Under the pieces are notes generated by a model. The model did not search any database and was not told where the DNA came from. It worked only from the letters and a program-made list of their open reading frames with translations. The translations under genes and the position numbers were made by a program. A DNA stretch of 63,337 bases, counting the filler, from Candidatus Woesearchaeota archaeon (GTDB taxonomy: Archaea > Nanobdellota > Nanobdellia > Woesearchaeales > GCA-2685855), in the NCBI GenBank assembly GCA_002685855.1. It is 6 parts of 6 records of this genome, joined end to end, with 100 filler letters (N's around TTAATTAATTAA, not from the genome) between each part and the next. Parts side by side here need not be neighbours in the genome. Positions count along the whole stretch, not along the records: positions 44,241 to 54,999 come from NYYS01000030.1; 5 more parts are not named here. One strand, written 5' to 3'. Below, one piece after another: positions 1,267 to 54,999 of this stretch. Positions within the stretch are counted from its first letter, which is position 1, and every line of letters begins with the position of its first letter.

Positions 1267-1307
1267 CTACCTTTTTATCTTTCAACAGATTCCTTAGGAA
1301 AAGAAAA

Positions 1308-1889: not shown

Positions 1890-2101
1890 AAAAAGAGGCA
1901 GAAAGTAATATCTCTTATTTTTTTATAGCAACCTGTTTCAACCCTTTTTAATAACAGACCATCTCTCTACCCCTCCTTTAACATAAAAAACCCTTTTTCT
2001 TACTCCCAACAACCACGCACCTTCTCCCTTAACAAACATAACATCATCTCATTTATAAACCCCAAGGAAATATTTAACTACTCTCCCCCATTTCCGCCCC
2101 C

Positions 2102-8175: not shown

Positions 8176-9040
8176 ATGTGGGGTATCACAATGAAAAAAA
8201 TTCTACTGTTCGTATTAGTCCTAATTCTACCAATCCAAGCCACCGCCTACCTCTATGATGACTTCTCAGATGGTTATCTCGATCCAGAGTTGTGGGAGGA
8301 AGTTGTTGCGGATAACTCAACCAACCATATTGAGTATCATTTTGAAAACCAAGAAGAAAACGCATATCACACAGAGAAAATTTCAATCCTTGAAGCAATC
8401 GGTGTAGAAGGTCATGGAAGAACATTAAACAAATTATGGGGTTATGGTCAAAACGGAAAATGGGGATGGAAAATACAAACAAACACCCAATTTAAACTAA
8501 AAAAAATCATTAAAAGTGAAGCAGGAGATCCTTCATTTGCATATATTTATTCTGCAGATAGAACCCAACTCGCGAAAACAGCATTTAATGGAAGAGAAGC
8601 ATTATTTGACTATCAATTAGAAGCAGACACAGTATATTACATCGTAGCTGATCGATTAGGCGGTTCTTATACACGTTCATATGTTGACACCGATGTGAAC
8701 TTTCCTTACGTAAGTCCGTCCTTTAATATAATTAAAACCGCAGAAATCAATACAGGGGATGAACGAACAGACCAAATAATAAACATAGAAAGTTTAGAAA
8801 TCGATTCACCAACAATGTACAATAGAAAAGGAACCCGCCTCTCCCTAACACAACCCCTCCAACCAGGTGACAAGTTAGAATATGAATTTGCACTTAATTC
8901 TGCCGATGGCGACCACCAATCTCATCTCGTCTTCAACAACTTAACCCTTTTCAGAAGAATGCATGAGATAGACAACTTTACCTGTGGCGGATTCGCCGGT
9001 TGTGGTTTCTTTGGTGAATGGAATGGAGCAAACCTTTGGG
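8176..9040 (+). CDS. Secreted/surface protein, truncated at the contig end (start possibly 8191)
   Basis: Signal peptide MKKILLFVLVLILPIQATA followed by YDDFSDG; frame stays open to the linker. Confidence 0.7.
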
Positions 9041-9140
9041 NNNNNNNNNNNNNNNNNNNNNNNNNNNNNNNNNNNNNNNNNNNNTTAATTAATTAANNNN
9101 NNNNNNNNNNNNNNNNNNNNNNNNNNNNNNNNNNNNNNNN
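9041..9140. other. Artificial contig linker
   Basis: 44 N + TTAATTAATTAA (stops in all six frames) + 44 N. Confidence 0.98.
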
Positions 9141-12072: not shown

Positions 12073-12075
12073 AGA

Positions 12076-13956
12076 CTATTTATACAGAAAGACAGATAAA
12101 ACCGCAATGTCAGATGGGTTAACACCAGAAACTCTCATTGCCTGGCCAAGGGTTTCCGGCCTGATTGTTGACAGTTTTTCTTTTGCTTCTGAAGAAAGGC
12201 CAACAACCCCCTTGTAATCAAAATCACTGGGAATCTTTTTTTTGTTTATTGAAGACAGTTTTTTTATTTGTTCCTTCTGGCGCTTTATATACCCATCATA
12301 CTTGATTATCGTTTCTGCCTCAAGAACTGCCTCCTCAATTAGAGGGAGAAAAAGATCAGAGCCTTTTAGTGCGACATTTAAAACAGTGTCCTTAAAGTCT
12401 TTTATAGATATGCCGGGCCTTTTTAAAATAACCTTTATTGGTTTTTTTTGTTTAACCAGAGGCTCTCCTTTTTTTCGTAAAACACGGTTTAGGGCCTTCG
12501 GGCCCAGGGAGATCCGGGTAGAGTCGACCACGGCACGAGTAAGGTCTGTTTTTTTTTGAAGAAGAGAAAGCTCTGTTTTTGTTAAAAGGTTGTGTTTGTC
12601 AGAATGTTTAATGAGTCGTCTTTCCGCATTAGAATATCGAAGAAGCAAGCGGTATTCTGCTCTGGAGGTGAACATTCGATAGGGCTCAAGCGTGTCCTTT
12701 GTTGTAAGGTCGTCAAGCATTACCCCAAGATAAGAGTCCTCCCTAGACAGAAGAAGAGGCCTTTTGTTCAAAACAAACATAGCGGAATTTATGCCTGCGA
12801 CAAGCCCCTGGCCGGCGGCCTCCTCGTATCCAGAGGTTCCATTTATTTGTCCTGCTAAAAACAACCCAGAGAGGGCCTTAGACTCAAGAGTTCTTTTAAG
12901 TTGAGATGGCGGAAAAAAATCATATTCGATTGCATAACCGGGCCGCAAAAGCTCAAGGTTTTTGAGGGCAGGAACCTCCCTTAGGGCCTTTATTTGTGTG
13001 GACATCGGAAGGCTTGTAGAAAAACCATTTAAATAAACCTGATTTGAATTGTGCCACTCCGGCTCAAGATAAAGATAGTGTTCGTCTCTCTTTGGAAAAC
13101 GATATATTTTATCCTCAATTGAGGGACAGTATCTGGGGCCACGCCCCACAATATCCCCGGTGAACATAGGGGAAAGGTGCATGTTTTTGTTTATTGTTTT
13201 ATGGGAGGCCGCGTTTGTTTTTGTTATATAACAGGGCAAGTTTGGGGAAGTAAAAACAGAAGTAAAATAAGAAAAAGGAGAAGGATCTTTGTCACCAAGG
13301 GAAACCGAACACTTAGAAAAGTCTATTGAAGACGTTTTTATGCGTGGAGGGGTTCCTGTTTTTAGTCTTGACGATGAGAAGCCAAGAGAGTGCAAAGACT
13401 CAGTAATACCGTGACTGTGTTTTTCCCCCATCCTTCCGGCTCTTGTTTTTTGCTCTCCAACATGTATGAGTCCATTTAGGAAGGTCCCGCAGGTTATAAT
13501 AAGTGCACGGCAAAACAGTTTTTCTCCTGACAACAAAACAACCCCGGAGACACCCCCTCCGGATGTGTTTATTTTTACAACCTCCCCCCGTAAAACAGAT
13601 AAACCTTCAGACAAAGAAACCCTGCGCAACACTTCTTGCTCATATTTTCTCTTGTCAATCTGGGCCCTTGGTGACCACACCGCCCTTCCCTTGGACCTGT
13701 TCAGCATTTTATATTGAAGAGCAGAGATGTCAGACACTCTTCCCATAACCCCACCAAGAACATCTATTTCTCGAACAAGCTGGCCCTTTGCAAGGCCACC
13801 AATGGAGGGATTGCAAGACATTCTACCAACCGCCCTTGGGTTGATAGTTACAAGAGAAACAGAAAGGCCTAGCTTTACACAAACTAAAGAGGCCTCTGCT
13901 CCAGCGTGCCCCCCGCCTACCACAATAACATCAAAAAACGGAGATGAGGGTTTCAC
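12076..13956 (-). CDS. mnmG: tRNA uridine-34 modification enzyme MnmG/GidA (bacterial)
   Basis: VVGGGHAGAEA, MSCNPSIGGLAKG, RLKTGTPPR, GPRYCPSIEDK, GQINGTSGYEEAA, RMFTSRAEYRL. Confidence 0.98.
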   Translation of the reverse strand: MKPSSPFFDVIVVGGGHAGAEASLVCVKLGLSVSLVTINPRAVGRMSCNPSIGGLAKGQLVREIDVLGGVMGRVSDISALQYKMLNRSKGRAVWSPRAQIDKRKYEQEVLRRVSLSEGLSVLRGEVVKINTSGGGVSGVVLLSGEKLFCRALIITCGTFLNGLIHVGEQKTRAGRMGEKHSHGITESLHSLGFSSSRLKTGTPPRIKTSSIDFSKCSVSLGDKDPSPFSYFTSVFTSPNLPCYITKTNAASHKTINKNMHLSPMFTGDIVGRGPRYCPSIEDKIYRFPKRDEHYLYLEPEWHNSNQVYLNGFSTSLPMSTQIKALREVPALKNLELLRPGYAIEYDFFPPSQLKRTLESKALSGLFLAGQINGTSGYEEAAGQGLVAGINSAMFVLNKRPLLLSREDSYLGVMLDDLTTKDTLEPYRMFTSRAEYRLLLRYSNAERRLIKHSDKHNLLTKTELSLLQKKTDLTRAVVDSTRISLGPKALNRVLRKKGEPLVKQKKPIKVILKRPGISIKDFKDTVLNVALKGSDLFLPLIEEAVLEAETIIKYDGYIKRQKEQIKKLSSINKKKIPSDFDYKGVVGLSSEAKEKLSTIRPETLGQAMRVSGVNPSDIAVLSVFLYK

Positions 13957-42598: not shown

Positions 42599-44140
42599 CT
42601 ATCTGTCCTGAATAGATCTGAAGAGTGCCTTTGCTGCTTCTTCAGGGCCGGTTATCTCTTTCCCTTGTATTCCGAGCTGTGTTCTGAGCTGTCCGATGAA
42701 GAGGTTGTTTTCAAACATTGCATCGAAGAATTTTTTTGCAATGGTTTCATGCAGTTCCTGGTATTGTGGCGGGCCGAAGATGTTTGCAAAGTAGTTGCTG
42801 ACGAGTCCGGTTGTTGTTGTGGTTCCTTTTGACATGACTGCGCCTTTTTTGAAAATTTCAAATGCGACTTCTTTGTCTATGAAGCGTTCAAGATAGGGGT
42901 TTTTGTCATCGATCTTTTCGTAGTTGTTTGCATAGAGAAAGTAGTCAACTGTATACCCTCTAAGCACCTCTTCGATATTTGTGACAGGGAGTACTGCACG
43001 TGCGTTTATTTTTTGCGGGCTCATGATGATCGATCGATCGAGGTTTCCAAATGCAAAACCTGGTTGAAGATCGTCTAACCGGACAAATGCGCCGATCTCT
43101 GTTCCGTAGGCAATGATTTTTCCTTCTTTCATGTCGAGAGAGCCCATATCGTCAAAGATGATGGTCATGTCACGGATGTATTCTTTTCCCAAGATGCGGA
43201 ATGCTTCGAGTGATTCTGATTTTCCTGCTCCTGAATCTCCGAGGATGATGACGTTTGCATTTCCTCCTTGTTTAAGTTCGATTGAGACCATTGCTCCATG
43301 GATGGGCATTCTTCCTTTTTTCATTGCCAGAATGTTGTGGAGGGTGAGGATCATCTTTTTGAGGTAGCCAAAATAGCCGAAGTTGTCTGAGCAGGGAACA
43401 GCGCCGAAGAGTATCTCTTCTTCATCGTAGAATATGGTTGGCGAACACGATGCGTGGAGTCTGTTTTCGGGGAGACCGAATGCATAAACCGCATCAGGTT
43501 GTTTCTTGAGGTCTGCATTGTTTGCGAGTTGGAAAAGGTTGGACAATGCACACCCCAGTCCGATGAATTTATTGTGAAAATAGACATGAATCAGGAAGTC
43601 GCCCACGATTGCAGGATAGCACATCCATTCTCTTTGGTCAAAGATGTATCCTTCTAACGGATTTGATTTGACACGTGTGAATTGTCCTGTTCTCTTATTC
43701 ATGAAGGGATCGATGATTAATGGTGGGTTGAGCAGTACCTGTCGTATGAACGGAACGTTTTTCAGATTGGAATGGTTTTCTGGGCAGGGCCATTCTTTTT
43801 TTACTGCGATGAGTCCAACCTGGAATCCTGCAGATAGCTGTCTGTAAATAGTTGGGTGGTCTCCAGTAAGGTTTTCGCAGACATCCCGATAGGCCTTTCT
43901 TACGAGGTCGTTCATGAGAGAGATGGTGTCGTTGAAGGTTCGGTAGGGGCGTTCATCAAAGTTTGCTCCGTTTTCTGAAAGACAGACAAGATATCGTTCG
44001 TAGTTTCTCCAGTAGTTATAAAATTCCTCGATGAGTTGGTGAAAGAGGTATGTTTTGGTTAGTATCTCTTCAAATTCAGGACGATCTTGGATGATCTCCT
44101 CTTTTGTTTTTTTGTTTAATGCCTGCATGATCTGGAGAAA
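42599..44140 (-). CDS. PEP carboxykinase-like P-loop protein, 5'-truncated
   Basis: FGYLKKMILT, PIHGAM, GDSGAGKSE, IIFDDMG, GTEIGAF, NAR: PEPCK/HPr-kinase superfamily motifs. Confidence 0.75.
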   Translation of the reverse strand, partial: FLQIMQALNKKTKEEIIQDRPEFEEILTKTYLFHQLIEEFYNYWRNYERYLVCLSENGANFDERPYRTFNDTISLMNDLVRKAYRDVCENLTGDHPTIYRQLSAGFQVGLIAVKKEWPCPENHSNLKNVPFIRQVLLNPPLIIDPFMNKRTGQFTRVKSNPLEGYIFDQREWMCYPAIVGDFLIHVYFHNKFIGLGCALSNLFQLANNADLKKQPDAVYAFGLPENRLHASCSPTIFYDEEEILFGAVPCSDNFGYFGYLKKMILTLHNILAMKKGRMPIHGAMVSIELKQGGNANVIILGDSGAGKSESLEAFRILGKEYIRDMTIIFDDMGSLDMKEGKIIAYGTEIGAFVRLDDLQPGFAFGNLDRSIIMSPQKINARAVLPVTNIEEVLRGYTVDYFLYANNYEKIDDKNPYLERFIDKEVAFEIFKKGAVMSKGTTTTTGLVSNYFANIFGPPQYQELHETIAKKFFDAMFENNLFIGQLRTQLGIQGKEITGPEEAAKALFRSIQDR

Positions 44141-44240
44141 NNNNNNNNNNNNNNNNNNNNNNNNNNNNNNNNNNNNNNNNNNNNTTAATTAATTAANNNN
44201 NNNNNNNNNNNNNNNNNNNNNNNNNNNNNNNNNNNNNNNN
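44141..44240. other. Artificial contig linker
   Basis: 44 N + TTAATTAATTAA + 44 N. Confidence 0.98.
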
Positions 44241-44947
44241 TACATTTCTCTATCTGTCAACCCACTCATATCAACAAATGCTCTAACATTATCCTCTAAA
44301 AAACTTTTTCGCAGACCTCCTTCGACATCAGTACCTGATTCATAAACATCATGAAGTGTATAATCCTCAGAATCCGATAAAGGTTTATCTAATGACACAC
44401 TATTAAAAAAAATCCTATTAACAAAACGGACCTTCTCATGCGTAAGATCTACCTCTTCAGCAATATCCTCATCACGTATAATCCCTTCCTCACCACCAAT
44501 CAAATTTCTTCTTGCTCGGATAATTTTGTAATAGTGGTCCCATTGAAAGGAAGGAATTCGAATCATCCTTTCTTCATCCTTTATTCCTTTGTAGATTTTT
44601 TGATAGATCCATGCATGTGAATAGGTCGTGAACCTTCCTTTTTCCGGATCAAACCGTTCTGCACCCACCCTCAAACCCTGATTTCCAAACGCAATAAGAT
44701 CCTGTCTCTCCAAAGAACGTAAGGGCAGAGCATGATACACCTTCATAGCAATAGAAATAGCATATCTCAGGTTATGAATCTGCAAAGCCTCAACAGCCTT
44801 AAGATCGCCCTCCATAACTCGACGTCCTAACCTCGTCTCATCCCTTTTTGTCAGAAGAGGAATTTTTCCAACTTCTTGCATATAGGTACTTAAACTACCC
44901 AAATACTCATCAGATGCACCATTGAGAGAGCCATTACCATCGGACAT
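44241..44947 (-). CDS. Sigma-70 family (RpoD/RpoS-like) RNA polymerase sigma factor homolog, truncated in region 4
   Basis: Region 1.2 LSTYMQEVGKIPLLT..DE..L; 2.1 NLRYAISIA; 2.2 DLIAFGNQGL; 2.3-2.4 RFDPEKGRFTTYSHAWIYQ; 3.0 RMIRIP; 3.2 VSLDKPL; start of 4.1 LTDRE. Confidence 0.9.
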
Positions 44948-44967
44948 TAAGAAAAGAAACCAATTCC

Positions 44968-44975
44968 TATTTAAG
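44968..44975 (-). promoter_or_regulatory. Putative archaeal TATA box of the sigma-like gene
   Basis: CTTAAATA on the minus strand, 21-28 nt upstream of ATG 44947; same spacing as other apparently leaderless genes in this window. Confidence 0.5.
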
Positions 44976-44991
44976 TGTGTTATCCTTAAAA

Positions 44992-45849
44992 TCAAGCAAT
45001 ATTCATCAGCTTTACAAAGGCCTCAAACACCGGCTCCTGTGTTGAAAACCTAAAAAAACGCATTCCCAGGCTCTCACACGCCTCCTGTATCTGACCTGTA
45101 TGATGATCTAGCTCATGCAGATATCGTGACCGAAACCGTGAAGATATAAACGTCTTTATGCTAAAATCAGACTCAGAATCCTTTAAAAACATATTCCCAT
45201 ACAAACTCAGGTGAAGCTCAGATGGATCCAGAATCTGGATAATAACCACATCATTCTTCTTAATCCGATGCAAACTTTCACGAATCTCCTTAATATCAAA
45301 CAAAAAATCAGAAACAATAACAAGAAGACTCTTACTCTTAATCAGCCCCTCATATTGATATAAACAACTTCTCAAATCACTTTGGCCATCTATCTTTAAT
45401 CCGCCCAAATGATTCAAAACAGTAACAAGACGTGCCCGGCTCTTTTGGGGACGGAACACCTGCAAATCATTTGCAAACGTACTAATCTCAAACTTCTCAT
45501 TATTCTTATGCGCAAGATATCCAAGACCCAATCCTAACATCGCCCCATACTCGAACTTCTTTTTAGGAGTTCCAAAATCCATACTCTTACTCCTATCAAT
45601 AATCACCCGTAAAATTAAATTTCTTTCTTCTTCAAACTCTCTAATAAAATATTTATTCGTTCGGGCATAGGCCTTCCAATCAATATGACGAATATCATCT
45701 CCCAGAACATACTCTCTGAAGTCCTTAAACAGAAGACCCTGACCTAAACTCTGACTCTCTCGTGAACCCTGATACTGGCTTAACACTTTCTTCTTCAATA
45801 CCAGATTGAAATGATTCAACTCTTCCAGAAAATCAGTATCTATAGTCAT
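44992..45849 (-). CDS. DUF58 (vWA-like) protein
   Basis: F.DFREYV.GDDIRHIDWKAYART, IDRSKSM, IVSDF. Confidence 0.95.
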   Translation of the reverse strand: MTIDTDFLEELNHFNLVLKKKVLSQYQGSRESQSLGQGLLFKDFREYVLGDDIRHIDWKAYARTNKYFIREFEEERNLILRVIIDRSKSMDFGTPKKKFEYGAMLGLGLGYLAHKNNEKFEISTFANDLQVFRPQKSRARLVTVLNHLGGLKIDGQSDLRSCLYQYEGLIKSKSLLVIVSDFLFDIKEIRESLHRIKKNDVVIIQILDPSELHLSLYGNMFLKDSESDFSIKTFISSRFRSRYLHELDHHTGQIQEACESLGMRFFRFSTQEPVFEAFVKLMNIA

Positions 45850-46916
45850 CCTTTCAAGATCTCCTTAATTACCTCATCCGTTGTTTTACCTTCACGTTCA
45901 GCCTTAAAACTAAGAATGATCCTATGCCTCAAAATAGGAAAAGCCAACTCATCAATATCTGTTTTCGACACATACTTCCTTCCCTCTAACAAGGCCTTTG
46001 CTTTCGCAGCAAGAATCAGATTAATACTCGCACGAGGAGAGGCTCCAAATTCAATTAACTCTTTCTTTGTTCGTGTTTTATGAACAATCTCAACTGCCCT
46101 CTTCTTTATATCATTCGCAATAGGAACCTGCCGCGCCAGCCCTTGCAATAAACGTAGGGATTCCTTAGAGAGCAAGACATTCAGTTTTCCCTTTGTAACA
46201 TGCTTTGTATACTTCTCAACAATTGCCAACTCCTCCTCATAGGTTGGATAATCCAAATTAATTTTCATAAGAAAACGGTCTGTCTGAGCCTCAGGCAAAG
46301 GATAGGTACCCTCCTGATCAATAGGATTCTGAGTCGCCAATATGAAAAAGGGAGTATCAAGCTCAAATGTCTGATTTCCAACTGTTACCTGTTTCTCCTG
46401 CATTGCTTCTAATAAAGCAGATTGTGTTTTTGGAGTTGCTCTATTTATTTCATCGCAGAGAACAAGATTCGCAAACAACGGACCCTTTTGAAAACGAAAT
46501 TGCTTTTTTCCATCAACATCTTCAATAAGATAAGTCCCAGTAATATCAGAAGGCATCAAATCTGGCGTTGACTGTATCCTACTAAATGAAAGATCCATTA
46601 CCTGTGCAATCGTCCGAATCAAGGTTGTTTTTCCTAATCCGGGAAAACTCTCAAGTAAAGCATTCCCATCAGATAAAATACAAATCATCACCTGTTCAAC
46701 TACGGACTGTTGCCCAATAATAACCTTTTCAATCTCTTTATGAATGCTTGAAAATGTAGATTTCAACTTTTCAATATTCTTAACAGCAGCAAGTGTTGCT
46801 CTTGAATCATGTTTTTTTTCAAGATGTCCGGGTACAGAACTACTTTTTGATTGTGTTTTTGTTGTTGAAATCTTCTTCTTCCTCAAATGTATTTTTCGTA
46901 CAGGCATTTGTTCCAC
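45846..46916 (-). CDS. moxR: MoxR-family AAA+ ATPase
   Basis: ESFPGLGKT, RIQSTPDLMPSDITG, DEINRATPKTQSALLEAM, ATQNP.DQEGTYPLPEAQ.DRF. Confidence 0.95.
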   Translation of the reverse strand: MEQMPVRKIHLRKKKISTTKTQSKSSSVPGHLEKKHDSRATLAAVKNIEKLKSTFSSIHKEIEKVIIGQQSVVEQVMICILSDGNALLESFPGLGKTTLIRTIAQVMDLSFSRIQSTPDLMPSDITGTYLIEDVDGKKQFRFQKGPLFANLVLCDEINRATPKTQSALLEAMQEKQVTVGNQTFELDTPFFILATQNPIDQEGTYPLPEAQTDRFLMKINLDYPTYEEELAIVEKYTKHVTKGKLNVLLSKESLRLLQGLARQVPIANDIKKRAVEIVHKTRTKKELIEFGASPRASINLILAAKAKALLEGRKYVSKTDIDELAFPILRHRIILSFKAEREGKTTDEVIKEILKG

Positions 46917-46917
46917 C

Positions 46918-47703
46918 TCATTTTAAACCTAATATCTTTAGATTGTATTCCTTTGCAAGTTGCATCTCTTTTGGTTGTTTTTCATCACTGAAACTTTCAG
47001 ATGCAGCATAGGCATCAACAGGAAAATCATAATTTCTTGCATCTCGATTTGCTTTTTCCTCATTAAAAATTGTTTCTCCACCACCCAACTGTAAGTCCAG
47101 CGTATCTGTTCCTAAAATTGCAACACTTTTTTTCCCATACAGGCCGCTATCATCAGAAAAATCAACATCCTCTATCTCTTTTCCTGCATCAAACCGCTCC
47201 CCGCCAACAAAAATATCAAACCCTCCAAAAGGAAGATCGATTTTCTTTACATCAATAGAATAAGGCGAAGTAATCAGTACAAACGTACTCAAGGTTGCAA
47301 TAATCAATACCTTCCCTATAACACTTTTAAAGTCGAGAAGACTCCCTGTGCTCACAGATTTTATCTTATTAATAAGCTCATCAAATAGTGCAAAGAGAAT
47401 AACATTCTTCTCATTCACATTATCCCTTGCTGTTCTTAAAATCTCCTTGATCTGAACATTATGATCTTCAATTGTCTTAAGTCGAATATGTTTCATATCA
47501 TAAAGTGTTCCCGCAATAAAATAACATAGAGCAGGAACTGCAGCTATAAAAACACTACCCTGAAAAAAAGAAATTATAAAATAGATTCCTATAAAGATTA
47601 TAACAGCATTCAGAAAACTATTAAAAAGAATGATCTTAAAAAGTTCAAACCGCAATTCTCTAAATAATCTTTTTATTTGTTTCATCTTAACAAGCCGATT
47701 CAT
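46918..47703 (-). CDS. Membrane protein of the MoxR cluster (start may be 47685)
   Basis: Three TM helices, EILRTARDN motif, acidic C-terminal tail. Confidence 0.7.
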   Translation of the reverse strand: MNRLVKMKQIKRLFRELRFELFKIILFNSFLNAVIIFIGIYFIISFFQGSVFIAAVPALCYFIAGTLYDMKHIRLKTIEDHNVQIKEILRTARDNVNEKNVILFALFDELINKIKSVSTGSLLDFKSVIGKVLIIATLSTFVLITSPYSIDVKKIDLPFGGFDIFVGGERFDAGKEIEDVDFSDDSGLYGKKSVAILGTDTLDLQLGGGETIFNEEKANRDARNYDFPVDAYAASESFSDEKQPKEMQLAKEYNLKILGLK

Positions 47704-48244
47704 TCCCGTCAGGGGTTCGTTCCAAACAGCTTACTTCACCTTCTAGTAAATCTATAGTGTCATCCCTATCATCAATTTTATCTTCCAATTCATCAATTGT
47801 TTGATTGTATTCTGATATATCCTTATTCAGTTTCTCAATATCAAGCCCTAACCGGGAAACCTTGCTCTTTTCACCTTCATAAAAATTTTCAAACTTATCT
47901 CTATTCTGCTCACATTCAGTAATAAGAGTCTCCTTTGTCTTCAACTCAGTCTCTTTTACATCAAGTTCTGACTCTTTCTCTTCATACAGCTCATCATATT
48001 TCTTCACACTCTCTTCTGACGTATTCAATACCTGTATTGTTTGAACCAACTGACTTCTGAAATTCTGTATCTGCTGTCTACACGAAGAAAGGTTCTCAGA
48101 AGTTGTACTAAAATTCTTGCCAATTTCACGAATATTCTGTTGGTAAAGAACAGTACTAACAACATAGACTGTTAAAATAATCACTATAAGAAAAAGGATA
48201 AAAACATTTAGATGCGTTTGTAAAAAACTTCCTTTTCTTTTCAT
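47687..48244 (-). CDS. Membrane-anchored coiled-coil protein
   Basis: N-terminal TM helix followed by a heptad-rich E/K region. Confidence 0.75.
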   Translation of the reverse strand: MKRKGSFLQTHLNVFILFLIVIILTVYVVSTVLYQQNIREIGKNFSTTSENLSSCRQQIQNFRSQLVQTIQVLNTSEESVKKYDELYEEKESELDVKETELKTKETLITECEQNRDKFENFYEGEKSKVSRLGLDIEKLNKDISEYNQTIDELEDKIDDRDDTIDLLEGEVSCLERTPDGNESAC

Positions 48245-50661
48245 CGTAATAATGCATCCTCCCAAAATCTTCTAAATCCTAGTTCAACTAAAAATATCAT
48301 AAGTCCGACACCAAGCACAATCCATGCATAACTCACACGCTTTATCTTCCTTCTTTTGGAGACACTTTTAACATATTCAACTATTCCTCTGTCATCCTCG
48401 GGTTTAAATACTTTTCCTCCTGTAGAGGAGATAAATTGGTCAAAATCAGGATTTGGACCTGTTCTTGCATATTCAAGCTCATAGTTCACAGAAAAAGGCC
48501 TTCCAAAAAGTTCATCAAATCCTCGTTCTAAAGGTATAAATCCCGCCCGATAAAGATCCTTTTCAATGCGAACAAATTCGAGATCACGAGCCACAGGAAC
48601 TGCGTCAGATCGAACCATAATAAAACTTTCTTCGCCAATCCGGGTATCAGGGATATGGACATAATTTTCCTTTTTCCGTTCAGGATCTCCCACAATCCAG
48701 TTAATTGCTCGAGAAACGAGCCGTGAGTTCTTTGAGTCAAGGAGTTCCCCTAAACTACTTCCTGAAAAAACATTAAATGTTGCTACTCTTCCAAGCCCGT
48801 AGCGCCATACAGAAAGAGCAGGACTTCCAAAATCAGTGCTAATCAACATCTGAGCATTCCTTTTTGGAACAACCATATTATATCCATATAGAACCGCAGA
48901 AGGATCCATATTCTTTGTAATAAAATGATTGCTATCTAAAACCATAAGGTCTAACGCTTCGCCCTCCCCAACCTCTCCTAAATCACCAAATAAAAGTTTA
49001 AATTTATTTGTTTCATCAGCAAGAAAGTAGAACCCTTTTCCTTCTTTCGCAACATCCTCCAGAAAATTTTCATTGATATTCACACGTGTTCTTCCAACAC
49101 CAACACTGTGAACCTTTATGCCAGCATCAGCAATATAATCAATAAGTTCAAGAGTATTCTTCTTATTATTAGAAGCAAACCCATCGCTCATAACAACAAT
49201 ATTACTATCCCCTTCTAAACCTACAAGAAGATCATACGCCCCCTTCAGCCCTTCATCAAGTGTACTCGCACCCTCTTGCGCTTGAATCCTAGAAATTTTA
49301 TCTTTAAGTTCATCTTTATTTGTATAGAGTGGATTCATCTCAGAAACCAGAAAAGGCTTATCTGAAAAGGCAATAACACCAACACGATTACCCAATGCCA
49401 ACTGATCCAGTATATCAATTGTCAATGCCTTTGTAATATCCATCTGACTAACTCTATCCTTCACCTCCTTCACAAATCCCCCTTTATATTCAATACGGCT
49501 GCCTGAAGCACTTCCAGATACATCAATAACCAGAACAATATTCGCATTTCCTCTCGTATTATTAGCAATTCCATACTCTACGGGAAGAAGCGATTCAAAA
49601 AGACTCCCTGTGTATTCTCCCTTGTTAAATGAATGTGAACCCCCTACAACAAGCATACCATTTCCATCCACAAGAAACTCGGTAAGATCTGTTAATCCCT
49701 GAAGTGAACTTGCAGCTATATCATTCACAATAACCGCATAATATTCATCTAACGACCCTGAAGGAAGACTCTTTACAACCTCCAGATCATACAACTCCTC
49801 AAGAATACTTTTCAACGGATCAGTTTTCTCAGAAATAAGAAGGACTTTAGGTTTTTCAACAATATGTACAGTCTTATAAAAAATATTGTTCATAGAAAAA
49901 GCATCATCCCCTTTAACCTCAACCTCTATCTTATGATCACCCTCACTAAATCTCTGACTAAGCTCATTCTCTGAAGACGAACTAGTCTTGTCATAGAGCA
50001 CAGCTCCATCTACACTAACAGAATAAGAAACATCTTTTGTATTAAATGTATTAAAATGAATTGTGTACACATTTTCATAATCACTCACCGTCTTGCTAGG
50101 CCCATAAATTGCCACTCCAACATCCTGCAAAATACCCGTCAAATTAATTGAACTAATTGTAACATTCAACTCAGAAGTCTTCATTAAAACATCTCCATAT
50201 CCAAAACCTCCTGTACTCTGACCATCTGTAACCATCAATAAATTTGTATTAGGCTCCATATAGGATACAATACCATCACCAATCAGACTGTCTGTCCCTC
50301 TTCCAATATATTTTACAGTTACCGGAATCTGTTGGCGAAGATCATGAACAAGTTCTGAAACAAATTCAGTATCAAATACAGTCATGGAACTTGAATTATC
50401 TACCAGGATAGTAACCCTAGGATCACCCGGAGTTTCAACAATTTCATCCCTGAAGGGATAGGCAATAGCAAGAACAATACAAGAAAAAATAATCGCTCGA
50501 CTGATAAAAAGGAGAATCCTAATCTTCCTTCTTTGAATAATCAGCTCCTTACTCAAATATGATGTCCTAAACAATGTAAGAAAACAAAAAGCAGCGAGAA
50601 AAAGAAGCAGTACAGGAATAAAAAAAAGAACCCATCCATGTAAAAGCATAATCTGACTCAT
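48241..50661 (-). CDS. Membrane vWA-domain protein with GATase-like domain
   Basis: LVDNSSSM, VIDVSGS, MSDG, LVVGG..SF, WRYGLGRV; TM helices at both ends. Confidence 0.85.
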   Translation of the reverse strand: MSQIMLLHGWVLFFIPVLLLFLAAFCFLTLFRTSYLSKELIIQRRKIRILLFISRAIIFSCIVLAIAYPFRDEIVETPGDPRVTILVDNSSSMTVFDTEFVSELVHDLRQQIPVTVKYIGRGTDSLIGDGIVSYMEPNTNLLMVTDGQSTGGFGYGDVLMKTSELNVTISSINLTGILQDVGVAIYGPSKTVSDYENVYTIHFNTFNTKDVSYSVSVDGAVLYDKTSSSSENELSQRFSEGDHKIEVEVKGDDAFSMNNIFYKTVHIVEKPKVLLISEKTDPLKSILEELYDLEVVKSLPSGSLDEYYAVIVNDIAASSLQGLTDLTEFLVDGNGMLVVGGSHSFNKGEYTGSLFESLLPVEYGIANNTRGNANIVLVIDVSGSASGSRIEYKGGFVKEVKDRVSQMDITKALTIDILDQLALGNRVGVIAFSDKPFLVSEMNPLYTNKDELKDKISRIQAQEGASTLDEGLKGAYDLLVGLEGDSNIVVMSDGFASNNKKNTLELIDYIADAGIKVHSVGVGRTRVNINENFLEDVAKEGKGFYFLADETNKFKLLFGDLGEVGEGEALDLMVLDSNHFITKNMDPSAVLYGYNMVVPKRNAQMLISTDFGSPALSVWRYGLGRVATFNVFSGSSLGELLDSKNSRLVSRAINWIVGDPERKKENYVHIPDTRIGEESFIMVRSDAVPVARDLEFVRIEKDLYRAGFIPLERGFDELFGRPFSVNYELEYARTGPNPDFDQFISSTGGKVFKPEDDRGIVEYVKSVSKRRKIKRVSYAWIVLGVGLMIFLVELGFRRFWEDALLR

Positions 50662-52478
50662 AGGTCACCTCTAATCTTAAGATAAATAAGTTCAACAATA
50701 AAAACGATAAGCGCCAATAACAAAAACTTATCCGTAACTTCCTTTGGCACTTTTTGCATGATAGAATCTCCTTTTTCAGACCTTTCAGAACTTAACGAAA
50801 CAGCCCTCCCTACATCCGACTCTTCACTACTTAAAAGATTAGCAGCTATTGCCCGTTCAGGAAATTCATAAAAACCCATCTCTTCTAAAGGAATCTGTTG
50901 ACCTATAAGCGCCCCACTCGGACTTTGAACTTCAACACGCTCAGGAAAAACATAGGACACACCAGTCTTAACATTCAACTCATCTGTTGTCTGATACGCA
51001 ACAAGATGTTCAATAATACGCTTCCAGAAAATAGGATAATACAGATTTGTTTTAAAATCAGAATCCTCATCCATAATTCCATACCAGAAAACTTTTCCAC
51101 CTTCCAGATTTCGTTCAAAAATCAAAGGACCACTTTCCGTCCATGCTAACTCAACAAGATCATCTGCGTCTTCCAACACAAAATGCCCAAAAACAGTCCC
51201 AAAGATAATATCCTGAGTCAGCTCTGAATCAACAACAGAAGTAACACTTGAAGCCTCTTCATTCAAAGAGATATAAGAAGTTCCAATAAGACTTTCAATA
51301 TCCATCTCAAACAGAGAAGGTTGCGCTGCAATAATCAACCTCTTTCCTTCCTTCACAAACAGTTCAAGATCCTTTAGCGTTCCAGGCAACACCAATTCAG
51401 GATCTACACCTGCAAGCACAAGAATATCTTCATCAAATTTCCGTGGAACCTTCGGAGGAGTATAATAGGTAAGATTTACTCGAGGAATTAGCGACAATGC
51501 AGTATTTATATACAGAGGAGGATCATTTGTAATAACACCTACATTAAACACCTCACCTTCAAAAGAACTTATATATGCCTTATTATCAATAAGAAAACCA
51601 TCATTCTCCTTGATTGAAAGAACACTCTTCCCCGGCGGAGTTGTAAAAGAGAACAGCTCAGTGCTCTTCCCCTGTATAGTAATACTCTCTTCCTTATCTC
51701 CTATCAAGAGAGTAACACTCTTTTCAATATCGGCATAATTCTTTATCCACGCCTTTGATCCACTATCCTCAACAACAAGATCCACAATACCAACATTCTC
51801 AACAAACCCATTATAGCTCACAAATTCAACAATCGCACCCGACGCAGTAAGAAGGTCTCTGGCACCCTCAAAACTATCAACAGTCGGATCAATAAAATCA
51901 GATAAAACCACAACTTTCGCATTTCCCCTAACAAAATCAGAAGCCATAATAAGAGCATCATTCAAACTCCCCTCTGTATCACGAGGACGAAGACTCAGCA
52001 ACAACTCTTCAGCCTCCGTAGCCTCTACCTCATCACCCATCAACTCAGGGATATCACTCGACACAATAATCGTTGTCCGTACCCCAACCCGTTTTAGAGC
52101 CTCTTCCTTAACTGCTTTAAACCGGGAACCTCCTTCAAAATCAGCCTGCATACTTGCTGTACTATCCAAAATAAGCACAGTTCTTGTAGTCAGCGCCTCC
52201 TTTGATAGATTAATAAATGGTTGAGCAATAGCAAAGGCCAGAATCAAGATCAACAAGAGATGAAAAAAGAAAAGAACATTTCTTATCAGCGTCTGAAGAA
52301 AACTATTCTTATTCGTCATCCCCTGCTCTTTGATAAAAAACATCAATGCAGGCAAAATCCTCTTTTTAGGAGTTGGCCTCATAAGATACAGCAAAAGAAA
52401 GGGAATAAGCGCCAAAAGAGCATATAATCCTGTACTATTTAAGAAAAACTGCCCGATAAGTTCACCTATAGCCACCAT
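50658..52478 (-). CDS. BatA-like N-terminal domain/vWA membrane protein
   Basis: LLLYLMRP.P....PALMF, AIAQP, LDSTASM, LSDF, ANLLS..ES. Confidence 0.85.
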   Translation of the reverse strand: MVAIGELIGQFFLNSTGLYALLALIPFLLLYLMRPTPKKRILPALMFFIKEQGMTNKNSFLQTLIRNVLFFFHLLLILILAFAIAQPFINLSKEALTTRTVLILDSTASMQADFEGGSRFKAVKEEALKRVGVRTTIIVSSDIPELMGDEVEATEAEELLLSLRPRDTEGSLNDALIMASDFVRGNAKVVVLSDFIDPTVDSFEGARDLLTASGAIVEFVSYNGFVENVGIVDLVVEDSGSKAWIKNYADIEKSVTLLIGDKEESITIQGKSTELFSFTTPPGKSVLSIKENDGFLIDNKAYISSFEGEVFNVGVITNDPPLYINTALSLIPRVNLTYYTPPKVPRKFDEDILVLAGVDPELVLPGTLKDLELFVKEGKRLIIAAQPSLFEMDIESLIGTSYISLNEEASSVTSVVDSELTQDIIFGTVFGHFVLEDADDLVELAWTESGPLIFERNLEGGKVFWYGIMDEDSDFKTNLYYPIFWKRIIEHLVAYQTTDELNVKTGVSYVFPERVEVQSPSGALIGQQIPLEEMGFYEFPERAIAANLLSSEESDVGRAVSLSSERSEKGDSIMQKVPKEVTDKFLLLALIVFIVELIYLKIRGDL

Positions 52479-52608
52479 TCATTCCTCACAAACCTTTAAA
52501 TTATGAGAACAACCTATTTAAAAACATTTGTTTTCTACCAGTGTATAGACAGGGTCTAATCTAGGAACATAGTGAGTCTGTATTGACCCAGGGTTATTGA
52601 TAGTTTGC

Positions 52609-53301
52609 TCAGAAATCACTAATTTCCAATACCTGTGCCTCTTTTTTAGAAAGAGATAATCGAACCCGATCTCTATTCTCTAGTAAATAAACCTTCTGAT
52701 CATTATCTGATGTAAGACTCATAGGCCCCCTAACCACCTTCAACTCAACACGATCATCTGACTTTAATGATAAAGGCATCTTCTTTATGGTAGGATTATT
52801 ATACGCAATTCTCCAGTCCCGTTTAAAGGATGATCTAGTAATTGAATGATAATAGCCCGTACTGCCAAAAACACCACTTGCAACAATTCCATCACCAATC
52901 ACAGGGTCCAGTTCCTTTCCATTAAGGAAAAGTTGAAATCGAGCAGCCATGTAAGGATAGGTATTTCTAATAACACAGTCATTCGTAGAAAAAAGTTGTT
53001 TCCGTTTAAACTCAACCAAGATCTTCTTATATCTCTTAATAACAAAATTCTTTTGTTCTAAAGCATCAATCATTTTAGAGAGACCTTCAGAAGAACATTT
53101 AGTACAAATCTCAGAATCCCTGATAAGAATCTTAGGAACCCCTGGATACCTGCGTTCTGCAATCAAAAACGTCCCATCACCTCCAAGAGAGATAACCAGA
53201 CTAGGGTTCTTATCCAACTTCAAATCAAATTTATTAATATCACGAAGAAGCTTCTTCTTCTCATCACTATTCTTTGCAACAATGCCTAATCTAAACCTCA
53301 T
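52609..53301 (-). CDS. NAD kinase family protein
   Basis: SLGGDGTFL, ND motif, GDGIV....GSTGYYHS. Confidence 0.8.
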   Translation of the reverse strand: MRFRLGIVAKNSDEKKKLLRDINKFDLKLDKNPSLVISLGGDGTFLIAERRYPGVPKILIRDSEICTKCSSEGLSKMIDALEQKNFVIKRYKKILVEFKRKQLFSTNDCVIRNTYPYMAARFQLFLNGKELDPVIGDGIVASGVFGSTGYYHSITRSSFKRDWRIAYNNPTIKKMPLSLKSDDRVELKVVRGPMSLTSDNDQKVYLLENRDRVRLSLSKKEAQVLEISDF

Positions 53302-53369
53302 TCAAACCCCTTCTAATGATCATAATCATCTATTCAAACAAGCTATACCCTACTATAAAAACCTTTTCA

Positions 53370-53507
53370 TCAATTCTCGTCAGGCCTCAGTTCATTCCAA
53401 AGATCCAATTCAATCTCACGAATTAATCCCTCTCTCGCCATCAAACCAATACGCTCATTCTCAAATGCTCTCCCCTTATACTCAGCTTCTTCAGTAATAC
53501 CGTTCAT
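53370..53507 (-). CDS. 45-aa acidic small protein (below the ORF-track cutoff)
   Basis: Translated by hand: MNGITEEAEYKGRAFENERIGLMAREGLIREIELDLWNELRPDEN; GGGGGAGGG RBS upstream. Confidence 0.4.
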   Translation of the reverse strand: MNGITEEAEYKGRAFENERIGLMAREGLIREIELDLWNELRPDEN

Positions 53508-53668
53508 TCTAATGCCCTCCCCCCAAACACAGCCTATTGAACTATAATTAAAAGACTATATAATCCTGATCTCTATTCCCTAAAAAACAGCCTTCTAAAT
53601 TCAAAAGTTATTTAAGCATTAAACGTATTCTTTTATACTGTGTGGGGATTGAAAAATAAGGTGAGACC

Positions 53669-54298
53669 ATGAAACACATACTCATAGCCCCTGTTGGAGA
53701 CAATATCGAAGCACTATTTATAGGAATACGAGAATTCAATATTGAAAAAGTCTATCTTCTCTCTCCTCAGGAACGCCTGGACGATGCAGAAAAAGCAGTA
53801 AAAGATCTTGAAAAATTTAAAATACCTTGCCAGATCATTCGCCTTAAAGGAAACCTTCTTGAAGAGATGTTCCGTGTTGTAGGAGAGATAAAAACAGGAG
53901 AGAAAGACAAGAACATCATTGTAAACATAGGCACCGGAGATCGCATATCACAATGCGCTGCCCTCTCTGCCTCATTCGTGAACGGACTCAAAGCATTCGA
54001 TGTAGCAAATAACGAACCCCTTATGCTCCCTGTTCTTCGCTTTGAATACTACAAACTTCTCACAGAAAAAAAGATGCGCCTCCTCAAAATCCTCAACCAG
54101 GAAGACTGCTACAGCAGCCTCGAAGAGCTTGCAAAACGATCCGGAATGAGCCTCCCCCTCATCTCCTACCACGTCAACGGCAACCTCAAAACAGAAGGCC
54201 TCAAAGACCTCGGCCTTGCAGAAACCCACATTCACAAAGGAAAAACCGCCCTTACAATATCCACCATGGGTAAACTTCTTGTCAAAGGGTATGTGTAA
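53669..54298 (+). CDS. CARF-like (DUF6293/Csa3-type) Rossmann domain plus wHTH transcriptional regulator
   Basis: ILIAPVG...EKVYLL...IIVNIGTGDR N-terminal domain; SLEELAKRSGMSLPLISYHV...LKDLGL wHTH. Confidence 0.7.
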   Translation: MKHILIAPVGDNIEALFIGIREFNIEKVYLLSPQERLDDAEKAVKDLEKFKIPCQIIRLKGNLLEEMFRVVGEIKTGEKDKNIIVNIGTGDRISQCAALSASFVNGLKAFDVANNEPLMLPVLRFEYYKLLTEKKMRLLKILNQEDCYSSLEELAKRSGMSLPLISYHVNGNLKTEGLKDLGLAETHIHKGKTALTISTMGKLLVKGYV

Positions 54299-54398
54299 GC
54301 ATTTCCAGTCTGAATTTATCCATTTGAAGGTTCTGATTTTTCGATAAGCTTTTAAATCCTTTAAAATTCCACGACTTTAGTACGAGGATACATTAACC

Positions 54399-54500
54399 GT
54401 GAAAAGAAGCTCTAGACGTTGGAAAAAGAAAGGACAGATGCGTTGGAAATGGCAAAGAAAACGCATGAAAAAGGAAAAACGTAAACGTTCCAAGATCTAG
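54399..54500 (+). CDS. rpl41e: Ribosomal protein L41e (eL41/eS32 family; below the ORF-track cutoff)
   Basis: Translated by hand from GTG: MKRSSRRWKKKGQMRWKWQRKRMKKEKRKRSKI, matching the archaeal L41e pattern WKKKG.MRWKW. Confidence 0.85.
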   Translation: MKRSSRRWKKKGQMRWKWQRKRMKKEKRKRSKI

Positions 54501-54704
54501 ATCAAACAGTAACCTTTTTAAAGAAATCGATGTTTCTCGAATGTGCCGCAAGGCATTATGACCGCCAATGTGGGAACCCTCAAGCAACGCTTCGAGGTTA
54601 TTTCTAACAAATAACTCAAGTTCCAGAAGCTCTGAATAGGAGCATCTGTTGGTAGAAGAACAAGGCAAAACCCAAATTTTTCCTTAAAGTCTAATAATAA
54701 CGCA

Positions 54705-54999
54705 GTACCCGTTGATCCTGCGGGAGATTGCTGCTATTGGGATTCGACTAAGCCATGCAAGTCAAGGGGTTGCTTCGGCAACACCGGCAAACCGCTCAGT
54801 AACACGTCGATAATTTACCCTTAGGTTAGGAATAACTTCTGGAAACTGAAGCTAAAACCTGATATGGAAATTCTACTGGAATGTGTTTTTCTATAAACGC
54901 AAGGCCTAAGGATAAGTTGGCGGTCGATTAGGTTGTTGGTGAGGTAAAGGCTCACCAAGCCTATGATCGATAGGGGCCTTGAGAGAGGTAACCTCGAGA
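54705..54999 (+). rRNA. rrs: 16S rRNA gene, archaeal, 5' fragment (~295 nt)
   Basis: TACCCGTTGATCCTGCGGGA, CTAAGCCATGCAAGTC, GCTCAGTAACACGT, GATTAGGTTGTTGGTGAGGTAA..GCTCACCAAGCC: archaeal-type conserved blocks. Confidence 0.95.

What the first reader, a model, noticed from the sequence alone, without database searches (positions are those of the whole stretch)
44241..44995. Bacterial-type RpoD/RpoS-like sigma factor gene on an archaeal contig
Seen: the ORF has sigma-70 regions 1.2, 2.1-2.4, 3.0, 3.2 and the start of 4.1. It sits on the same unbroken contig (44241-54999) as an archaeal 16S gene, rpl41e and an archaeal-type MoxR/vWA cluster, 44 bp downstream of DUF58 on the same strand. It has the same strand skew as its neighbours and a TATA box (CTTAAATA) at archaeal leaderless spacing, with no Shine-Dalgarno. 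Established: archaea initiate transcription with TBP/TFB, not sigma factors. By-eye alignment to E. coli sigma70 shows targeted changes: core-binding DLIQEG becomes DLIAFG (Q406/E407 lost), K414 becomes V, Y425 is deleted, W433 becomes A, R436 becomes Y and T440 becomes Y, while Y430, W434 and Q437 are kept; region 1.1 is absent. Inference: a domesticated sigma fold that may no longer bind bacterial core RNAP. It could be a DNA-binding regulator, a partner of the archaeal RNAP clamp or, more speculatively, an effector aimed at a bacterial partner.
Basis: partly seen in the sequence, partly recalled or inferred. Interest (0 to 1): 0.88.

Follow-up and report, generated by a model that had tools for sequence, protein, structure and literature searches.

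The report
Bacterial-type sigma gene in DPANN archaeon
A tiny symbiont-type archaeon really does carry its own, much-changed copy of a bacterial sigma transcription factor, but such genes are already known to be common in this group of archaea and what they do there is still unknown.

Summary
On the minus strand, 44947 to 44243, lies a 235-codon open frame with Sigma70 regions 1.2, 2 and 3. It is cut by the contig end. The contig is archaeal. An independently assembled contig bridges the DUF58/sigma junction. The gene has an archaeal TATA box at the genome's usual leaderless spacing. The missing region 4.2, with a stop codon, lies at the end of another contig of the same genome, G000:C13. The gene therefore looks intact, about 300 aa. 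The genome has archaeal RNAP, TBP and TFB and no bacterial rpoB/rpoC.

It is not new. Sigma70_r2 genes occur in 115 of 301 sampled genomes of the same order. They were published by Castelle et al. 2021 and credited to Rinke et al. by a review. This scan has noted them in at least 64 other genomes. This copy has no close relative (at most about 40% identity). Its core-binding and melting residues are altered. Its function is unresolved; I favour a sigma-derived DNA-binding regulator.

The parts
44243..44947 (-). Sigma-70 family CDS, 5' part (235 codons: regions 1.2, 2.1-2.4, 3.0-3.2, start of 4.1), cut by the contig end
   Evidence: AF2 model pLDDT 88.5; Foldseek top hits are sigmaS/SigA chains
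44968..44975 (-). Archaeal TATA-box-like element CTTAAATA, starting at -28 from the ATG (leaderless spacing)
   Evidence: Genome-wide positional peak of TTTAWATA-like 8-mers at -30/-29
44948..44991 (-). 44-nt intergenic spacer between the DUF58 stop and the sigma ATG; holds the promoter
44992..45849 (-). DUF58 gene (upstream neighbour, same strand)
   Evidence: PF01882 134.8 bits
45846..46916 (-). MoxR-type AAA+ ATPase (AAA_3, AAA_lid_2)
44141..44240 (.). Artificial N/stop-linker between contigs C29 and C30; not biological sequence
54761..54998 (+). Archaeal SSU rRNA fragment at the other end of the same contig
   Evidence: RF01959, 184.4 bits

Best explanation
This is a real, probably intact, natively expressed gene for a sigma-70 family protein in a small (about 1 Mb) DPANN-type archaeal genome. 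An ancestor of the gene came from Bacteria. Such genes are widespread in this archaeal order, where they duplicate and diverge. This copy is an orphan-like, fast-evolved member. It lacks region 1.1. It has lost the region-2.2 Gln-Glu pair and one Trp of the melting dyad. It keeps Y430, W434 and Q437, and (on the inferred 3' piece) the canonical region-4.2 recognition helix RERIRQ. No bacterial core polymerase is encoded. I therefore think it most likely works as a sigma-derived, sequence-specific DNA-binding transcription regulator of the archaeon's own genes, and not as a classical initiation factor. Shown: gene, fold, context, promoter, residue changes, absence of bacterial RNAP. Inferred: the join of the two gene pieces, expression, and the regulator role.
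For: Family and fold:
- Pfam r1.2, r2 and r3 hits are above cut-off.
- The AF2 model has pLDDT 88.5, and the top 50 Foldseek PDB hits listed are chains of sigma-bearing RNAP complexes or models, the first being sigmaS and SigA.

Native to the archaeon:
- Neighbours carry archaeal-flavoured families (DUF7502, DUF7406/7/8, HFX_2341_N), and archaeal 16S lies on the same contig.
- An 820-nt Logan contig from run X1 covers 44251-45070 with 0 differences and bridges sigma/DUF58. Depth is even at 4.3-5.7. Two other studies hold identical pieces.
- The TATA box sits at -28, where the genome's own promoters peak.
- GC is like the neighbours'.

Likely intact:
- The only other sigma-like piece in the genome is a 50-aa frame at the very end of contig C13. 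It has the same orientation logic and covers HMM positions 279-315.
- It passes Pfam Sigma70_r4 (32.2 bits against a 24.1 cut-off), carries RERIRQ, and ends in a stop codon.
- About 17 residues (E. coli 557-573) are unassembled between the two pieces.

No cognate polymerase:
- Bacterial rpoC and rpoB models hit only the archaeal Rpo operon on C21, below cut-off. The archaeal A' model scores 1163 bits.
- TBP and TFB are present.

Family context:
- 115 of 301 genomes of the order have Sigma70_r2, including closed or near-closed genomes, next to archaeal core genes.
- Four tandem paralogues in G039 cluster together (SH-aLRT 98), one of them strongly degenerated.

Divergence:
- Only 4 of 1.84 billion cluster representatives reach E<=1e-30, including the protein itself. 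The best identities are about 34-43%.
- The terminal branch is long, 1.63.
Against: - No expression data: no RNA run holds the stretch.
- The regulator role is inference from residue patterns only.
- Substitutions at 406/407 and 433 also occur in working bacterial alternative sigmas. E. coli RpoH has H at 433 and FliA has Q, and FliA has A at 407. They therefore do not prove loss of polymerase binding.
- No target DNA motif was found. TTGACA-like hexamers show no positional peak upstream of the TATA boxes. Full -35/-10 pairs are fewer than in shuffles (128 against 217-266).
- The C13-C30 join is not bridged by any sequence I could read.
- The strong conservation of polymerase- and promoter-contact residues in most relatives argues that the family as a whole still does something sigma-like with a partner that was not identified.
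Confidence: 0.4

Rival explanations
1. It is still an RNA-polymerase-binding initiation or melting factor, but for the archaeal enzyme. Domain 2 would dock on the Rpo1N clamp coiled-coil, the homologue of the bacterial beta-prime clamp helices and the site used by TFE. It would help or modulate open-complex formation at AT-rich TATA/-10-like DNA.
For: The clamp coiled-coil is structurally homologous between domains and is the TFE docking site (established knowledge, recalled, not from a call). Most sigma genes of the order keep the region 2.2, 2.3 and 4.2 contact residues (E407 in 39 of 44, W433 in 37 of 44, R584 in 33 of 44), which suggests a conserved polymerase-like partner. G000 is one of 10 of 301 genomes in which TFE (PF02002) was not found.
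Against: This copy has lost Q406, E407 and W433. There is no sigma-for-TFE replacement pattern: TFE was found in 110 of 115 sigma-positive genomes, and 5 of the 10 TFE-negative genomes are sigma-positive against 115 of 301 overall. G000 is 94% complete, so TFE may simply be unassembled. The Rpo1N coiled-coil segment is essentially invariant in 29 genomes of the order whether or not they carry sigma, so there is no sign of co-adaptation.
Confidence: 0.2
2. It is aimed at a bacterial partner. The protein would reach the cytoplasm of a bacterial host or neighbour of this presumed episymbiont and redirect that cell's RNA polymerase, as phage sigma factors do.
For: There is no bacterial core enzyme in this or in 5 other sigma-bearing genomes of the order. 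Yet many relatives keep near-perfect group-1/2 motifs for core binding and for -10 and -35 reading. The inferred 3' piece keeps RERIRQ.
Against: No secretion signal or delivery system was linked to the gene; neighbours are MoxR/DUF58/vWA genes. This particular copy has lost the core-binding Gln-Glu pair. No host is known. Bacterial hosts for this order are speculation.
Confidence: 0.12
3. It is a decaying or neutral leftover of a horizontal transfer with no function.
For: The branch is very long and there is no close relative anywhere. Key functional residues are changed. Distribution in the order is patchy, 115 of 301. The window's gene is incomplete.
Against: 235 codons are open, and the candidate 3' piece is also open and ends in a proper stop. 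The AF2 fold is confident. The gene has a native-type promoter at the genome's own spacing. Identical sequence pieces occur in runs of three studies dated 2014, 2020 and 2023. The genome is streamlined, about 0.95 Mb.
Confidence: 0.2
4. It is an assembly chimera or binning error: the sigma piece belongs to a co-occurring bacterium or phage.
For: The gene sits at a contig end, and the genome is a 66-contig metagenome bin.
Against: An independent contig bridges sigma and DUF58 with 0 mismatches and even depth. The contig carries archaeal 16S and archaeal families. An archaeal TATA box sits at the native spacing. There is no near-identical sigma in 50,697 phage records (all 63 hits below 60%, best 38%) or among 1.84 billion protein cluster representatives. 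Contamination estimate is 0.86%.
Confidence: 0.03

Closest known systems
Sigma-70-class genes of DPANN archaea (fam00359 of Castelle et al. 2021, PMC8204110; archaeal sigma factors credited to Rinke et al. by the review PMC6126073)
   Same: A bacterial-type sigma-70 family gene in a small DPANN genome, co-encoded with archaeal markers, with no anti-sigma factor and no bacterial RNAP. The paper says they are 'particularly prevalent in Woesearchaeota' and that the mechanism is unclear (passage read). My census gives 115 of 301 genomes of this order.
   Different: This copy is one of the most derived: Q406A, E407F, W433A, no relative above about 40% identity. The gene is split over two contigs. 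I did not open the paper's Supplementary Table 3, so I cannot say whether this protein is in fam00359. Rinke et al. was not read; I saw only the review's sentence, and my recollection of its abstract is from memory.
Bacterial group 1/2 sigma factors (RpoD/SigA, RpoS)
   Same: The order of regions 1.2-2-3-4. Best NCBIfam hits are RpoD/RpoS. Best PDB sequence hit is SigA 7l7b_F, E 7.9e-29. Best structural hits are sigmaS and SigA. Identity to E. coli RpoD is 35%.
   Different: Scores are far below the equivalog cut-offs (118 against 572 bits for RpoD; 108 against 379 for RpoS). There is no region 1.1. There is a 4-residue insert between regions 2.1 and 2.2. The Gln-Glu pair and W433 are changed. 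No bacterial core enzyme is present in the genome.
Bacterial group 3 sigma factors (RpoH, FliA)
   Same: Small size, no region 1.1, and a single Trp at the 433/434 dyad (RpoH has H-W, FliA has Q-R). The rpoH_proteo model hits at E 1.2e-18.
   Different: The score is lower than to RpoD/RpoS models. The tree does not place the protein with either E. coli group 3 sigma; it sits in an unresolved polytomy.

Membership tests
Sigma-70 family (Pfam clan: Sigma70_r1_2, r2, r3, r4) | Region 1.2 and region 2 (core-binding and -10 domain) detectable above curated cut-off | tested here: met
   PF00140 38.8 bits (cut-off 22); PF04542 30.4 bits (cut-off 24)
Sigma-70 family | Region 3 | tested here: met
   PF04539 26.6 bits (cut-off 25.3), residues 141-205
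Sigma-70 family | Region 4 (helix-turn-helix that reads -35) | tested here: inconclusive
   Not in the window: the gene is cut at region 4.1. A 50-aa terminal frame on G000:C13 passes PF04545 (32.2 bits, cut-off 24.1) and carries RERIRQ plus a stop. That it is the same gene is inferred, not bridged.
Sigma-70 family | Sigma 2 / sigma 3 all-helical fold | tested here: met
   AF2 pLDDT 88.5, pTM 0.71. Foldseek PDB rank 1 is 5ipl_F sigmaS (E 4.3e-10, TM 0.65); all 50 listed hits are chains of sigma-bearing RNAP complexes or models.
Functional bacterial sigma factor | Region 2.2 core-binding residues (E. coli Q406, E407) | tested here: not met
   A86 and F87 at these positions. 30 of 44 and 39 of 44 sampled relatives keep Q and E. 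The functional importance of these residues is recalled from the literature.
Functional bacterial sigma factor | Aromatic melting residues of region 2.3 (Y430, W433, W434) | tested here: inconclusive
   Y430 and W434 are kept; W433 is Ala. E. coli RpoH and FliA also lack W433.
Functional bacterial sigma factor | A cognate bacterial core RNA polymerase (rpoB, rpoC) in the same genome | tested here: not met
   TIGR02386 and TIGR02013 hit only the archaeal Rpo operon on C21, below cut-off. The genome is 94% complete.
RpoD / RpoS equivalogs (NCBIfam) | Score above the curated equivalog cut-off | tested here: not met
   Best is PRK09210 RpoD, 117.9 against 572 bits; rpoS_proteo 108.3 against 378.7. 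The query is truncated, which lowers scores, but not by this much.
DPANN sigma genes (Castelle et al. 2021) | Sigma-70-class gene on a contig with archaeal, taxonomically informative genes; misbinning excluded | tested here: met
   relatives in the same order
DPANN sigma genes (Castelle et al. 2021) | Listed in the paper's family fam00359 | not tested
   Supplementary Table 3 was not opened.
Functional sigma factor (any) | Promoter-specific initiation with a polymerase in vitro | not testable with these tools
   Needs biochemistry.

The most novel reading that the evidence does not exclude
The sigma proteins of this archaeal order, this one included, dock on the archaeal RNA polymerase clamp coiled-coil (the TFE/Spt5 site) and read DNA with their sigma 2 and sigma 4 domains. 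These archaea would then run a hybrid initiation system in which a bacterial-type specificity factor works on a eukaryote-like polymerase alongside TBP and TFB.
Probability: 0.12. Interest if true: 0.85.

Novelty: new member of a known kind. Interest (0 to 1): 0.3.

Why it matters
Archaea are textbook users of TBP/TFB, not sigma factors. The presence of intact sigma genes in more than a third of the sampled genomes of one archaeal order, without any bacterial polymerase, is a real unsolved puzzle. But it is a published one, and this scan has met it many times. This locus adds three things:
- A very diverged example whose polymerase-contact residues are changed while its DNA-contact residues are largely kept.
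- A clean demonstration of a native archaeal promoter on such a gene.
- The observation that most relatives, unlike this copy, keep the full set of bacterial contact residues.

The last point sharpens the question of what partner they serve.

Tried and rejected
- Complex prediction of Rpo1N residues 1-420 (29-row alignment) with sigma residues 12-140 (71 rows): verdict 'no answer', score 0.00 in both runs, controls not run. This is no evidence either way.
- RNA evidence: no RNA holder is listed for the stretch.
I therefore obtained no organism-labelled bacterial references beyond E. coli, and could not test archaeal monophyly properly.
- Tree of 50 sigma cores (46 from the order, 4 from E. coli): only the quick tree finished, with 28 of 47 inner branches unsupported. 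P0001 sits in a polytomy on a 1.63 branch. It gives no placement and no test of one versus many transfers.
- Conserved partner gene: the large no-Pfam ORFs next to the sigma genes of G039 and G028 are not detectably related, and neighbourhoods differ among 8 loci.
- Sigma replaces TFE: rejected.
- Bacterial-type promoters in G000: no positional TTGACA signal, and -35/-10 pairs are depleted against shuffles. A small regulon cannot be excluded.
- dN/dS: impossible, because no genome of the same family is among the 300 others sampled and the closest homologue is about 36% identical.
- The top hits in the 1.84-billion library (P0005-P0008) score high only because they carry duplicated sigma modules.
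Full report
**What is in the window**

The 63,337-base window is six contigs of one genome bin joined by artificial N/TTAATTAATTAA linkers. The stretch 44241-54999 is one unbroken contig (G000:C30, 10,759 bp, GC 0.38).

The flagged ORF is on the minus strand. The ORF listing starts it at TTG 44995 and carries it through the linker. The biologically sensible start is ATG 44947, and the frame is open to the last base of the contig (44243). That gives 235 residues (P0001).

Family evidence:
- Pfam finds Sigma70_r1_2, r2 and r3, each above its curated cut-off.
- NCBIfam's best models are RpoD and RpoS, but far below the equivalog cut-offs.
- The best solved relatives are SigA and RpoS chains (7l7b_F, E 7.9e-29).
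- An AF2 model on a 73-row alignment is confident (pLDDT 88.5). Its top Foldseek PDB hits are sigmaS and SigA chains, and all 50 listed are chains of sigma-bearing RNAP complexes or models.

I fetched E. coli K-12 rpoD and aligned it: 35% identity over residues 40-234 against 361-555.

Every claim holds. DLIQEGN reads DLIAFGN (Q406A, E407F). K414 is V. Y425 is deleted. W433 is A, R436 is Y and T440 is Y. Y430, W434 and Q437 are kept. R441 is K, and there is a 4-residue insert between regions 2.1 and 2.2. Only 17 residues precede region 1.2, so region 1.1 is absent. The last residues align to E. coli 551-556, the start of region 4.1.

**Is it really archaeal DNA?**

- The same contig carries an archaeal SSU rRNA fragment and genes with archaeal-flavoured Pfam families (DUF7502, DUF7406/7407/7408, HFX_2341_N), together with MoxR, DUF58 and vWA genes.
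- An 820-nt contig assembled independently (Logan) from run X1 covers 44251-45070 without a difference, so it bridges the sigma/DUF58 junction. The neighbouring pieces have similar depth (4.3-5.7). X1 may be the source sample.
- Runs of two other studies (dated 2020 and 2023) hold identical pieces of the sigma 3' end and of DUF58. One 223-nt record runs 134 nt beyond the contig end.
- The promoter claim can be tested on the genome itself. Before the first ATG of 757 ORFs of 150 aa or more, TTTAWATA-like 8-mers (at most 1 mismatch) start at -30 or -29 in 37 and 74 cases, against about 4 per background position. The sigma gene has CTTAAATA starting at -28.
- GC of the gene (0.394) matches its neighbours.
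- No phage record comes close: 63 hits, all below 60%, best 38%. Among 1.84 billion cluster representatives only 4 reach E<=1e-30, one being the protein itself.

Chimera or misbinning is therefore very unlikely.

**The missing 3' end**

A profile built from my sigma alignment, run over all six-frame fragments of the 66 contigs, finds one further piece. It is a 50-residue frame at the very end of contig C13 (G000:C13:6137-6286, minus strand).

- It matches profile positions 279-315 (E 1e-8), while P0001 covers 39-258.
- It passes Pfam Sigma70_r4 (32.2 bits) and contains the canonical recognition helix RERIRQ.
- It ends in a stop codon.
- Orientation and position fit a gene running off C30 into C13, with about 17 codons (E. 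coli 557-573) unassembled.
- The genome has exactly one region-2 match and one region-4 match.

The join is an inference: there is no overlap between the contig ends. If it is right, the gene encodes about 300 residues and shows no pseudogene sign. Downstream on C13 lie an NrtR-type Nudix regulator, a beta-helix protein, NadA and a Na/Ca exchanger.

**The transcription machinery of the genome**

G000 is 953 kb, 94% complete, with 0.86% contamination.

- The bacterial rpoC and rpoB models hit only the archaeal Rpo operon on C21, below cut-off. The archaeal A' model scores 1163 bits there.
- TBP (C39) and TFB (C31) are present.
- TFE (PF02002) was not found.
- Five other sigma-bearing genomes of the order likewise have only the archaeal enzyme.

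**How common is this?**

With P0001 as query, 15 of 40 other genomes of the same order (each from a different family) have a homologue.

With Pfam Sigma70_r2, 115 of 301 genomes of at least 80% completeness match. Of these, 107 are above cut-off; among high-quality genomes the figure is 94 of 241. Genomes carry up to 7 copies. These counts include four genomes the tool marks as unpublished.

Context in 8 loci:
- Sigma genes lie beside archaeal core genes. In G039 these are Rpp14, proteasome alpha, SBDS, Rrp4/41/42 and deoxyhypusine synthase.
- In the closed genome G016 they are archaeal rpS15, Nre and XPD.
- In G018 they are diphthamide synthase and RIO kinase. In G027 it is CDP-archaeol synthase.
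- One contig (G014:C67) carries EF-Ts and is probably a bacterial contaminant; I dropped it from the counts.
- There is no conserved neighbourhood. The large unannotated ORFs next to the G039 and G028 sigmas are unrelated.

**Literature**

Castelle et al. 2021 (PMC8204110; passage read) report sigma-70 genes (fam00359) 'particularly prevalent in Woesearchaeota'. They state that mis-binning was ruled out, that no anti-sigma factors were found, and that the mechanism is unclear. A 2018 review (PMC6126073; passage read) credits Rinke and colleagues with first describing archaeal sigma factors. I did not read Rinke et al. itself.

My searches for further work on archaeal sigma factors found nothing on mechanism. 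This scan's own notes list 73 findings of this kind in at least 64 genomes. So the phenomenon is known.

**How this copy compares with its relatives**

I aligned 44 other sigma ORFs from the order's loci to the profile and read E. coli positions. This sample is biased towards the best Sigma70_r2 matches. Three rows come from unpublished genomes.

| E. coli residue | Kept in relatives (of 44) |
|---|---|
| D403 | 42 |
| Q406 | 30 |
| E407 | 39 |
| Y430 | 41 |
| W433 | 37 |
| W434 | 39 |
| Q437 | 37 |
| R441 | 35 |
| R584 / E585 / R588 / Q589 | 33-35 |

Many copies are motif-for-motif like RpoD. P0001 deviates at 406, 407, 433, 436 and 440. Only the G018 copy shares a Gly-Phe at 406/407.

The loss of core-binding residues is therefore a peculiarity of this fast-evolving copy, not of archaeal sigmas in general. 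It is also not decisive by itself, because E. coli RpoH and FliA lack W433 too.

The quick tree of 50 cores is largely unresolved. P0001 sits on a long branch (1.63). The four tandem G039 copies cluster (SH-aLRT 98), which shows duplication and decay inside an archaeal genome. One copy (G091) is very close to E. coli RpoD, which suggests contamination or a very recent transfer.

**Mechanism**

What is shown:
- the gene, fold and native context;
- the native promoter;
- the absence of a bacterial polymerase;
- the retention of DNA-contact residues, with changes at polymerase-contact and melting residues.

What I infer, at about 0.4, is a sigma-derived sequence-specific DNA-binding regulator of the archaeon's own genes.

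Rivals:
- A factor that still docks on the archaeal clamp coiled-coil, as TFE does (0.2). Against a simple sigma-for-TFE swap: 110 of 115 sigma-positive genomes have TFE, and the coiled-coil is invariant in 29 genomes with or without sigma.
- A protein aimed at a bacterial partner's polymerase (0.12).
- A neutral relic (0.2).
- A chimera (0.03).

Two direct tests gave nothing. A structure-based complex test of sigma domain 2 with Rpo1N 1-420 returned no answer. A search for bacterial-type promoters in G000 found no positional signal and fewer -35/-10 pairs than in shuffles.

**Verdict**

The finding is a new, very diverged member of an already published kind. Its function remains open.

Noticed in passing
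G000:C13:6137-6286 (locus L107), outside the window: A 50-aa terminal frame with a canonical sigma region 4.2 (RERIRQ) and a stop codon. It is the likely missing 3' end of the window's sigma gene, which would place contig C13 directly before C30 with about 51 nt unassembled.
   Followed up: partly
whole genome G000; example 44968-44975: The genome shows a very sharp TATA-box peak starting at -30/-29 before start codons: 166 of 757 ORFs >=150 aa have a TTTAWATA-like 8-mer at -31..-27. Leaderless transcripts therefore seem to be the rule in this organism.
   Followed up: yes
whole genome G000: TFE (PF02002) was not found in G000, whereas 291 of 301 genomes of the order have it. The genome is 94% complete, so it may be unassembled.
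   Followed up: partly
L026 (G039:C3:8000-27999) 8364-13496: Four sigma genes in tandem (287, 297, 371 and 684 aa), from near-canonical RpoD-like to strongly degenerated. They lie between exosome/proteasome genes and three large ORFs without Pfam hits (287, 765, 1062 aa), two of which share an N-terminal motif.
   Followed up: partly
P0006 (2571 aa), P0005, P0007, P0008; L034 (G107:C5, open frame 1763 aa): Giant or tandemly duplicated sigma-module proteins: two or three region-2 modules in one chain, or a sigma core at the end of a very long ORF. Some are in this archaeal order. An earlier scan note (e1-4400866) describes a similar triple fusion.
   Followed up: no
L038 (G091:C21) 1006-3210: This 'archaeal' sigma groups with E. 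coli RpoD on very short branches (0.23 each, SH-aLRT 96). It is either a contaminating proteobacterial contig or a very recent transfer.
   Followed up: no
L033 (G014:C67): An RpoD-like gene with region 1.1 sits on a 6.6-kb contig with elongation factor Ts, a bacterial marker. This is probably a mis-binned bacterial contig in a bin with 6% contamination.
   Followed up: partly
window 54438-54500 (+): A 20-aa Arg/Lys-rich ORF about 260 nt upstream of the 16S fragment.
   Followed up: no
window 42599-44128 (-) and 52609-53301 (-): A 509-aa ORF and a 230-aa ORF with no Pfam match at E<=0.001.
   Followed up: no
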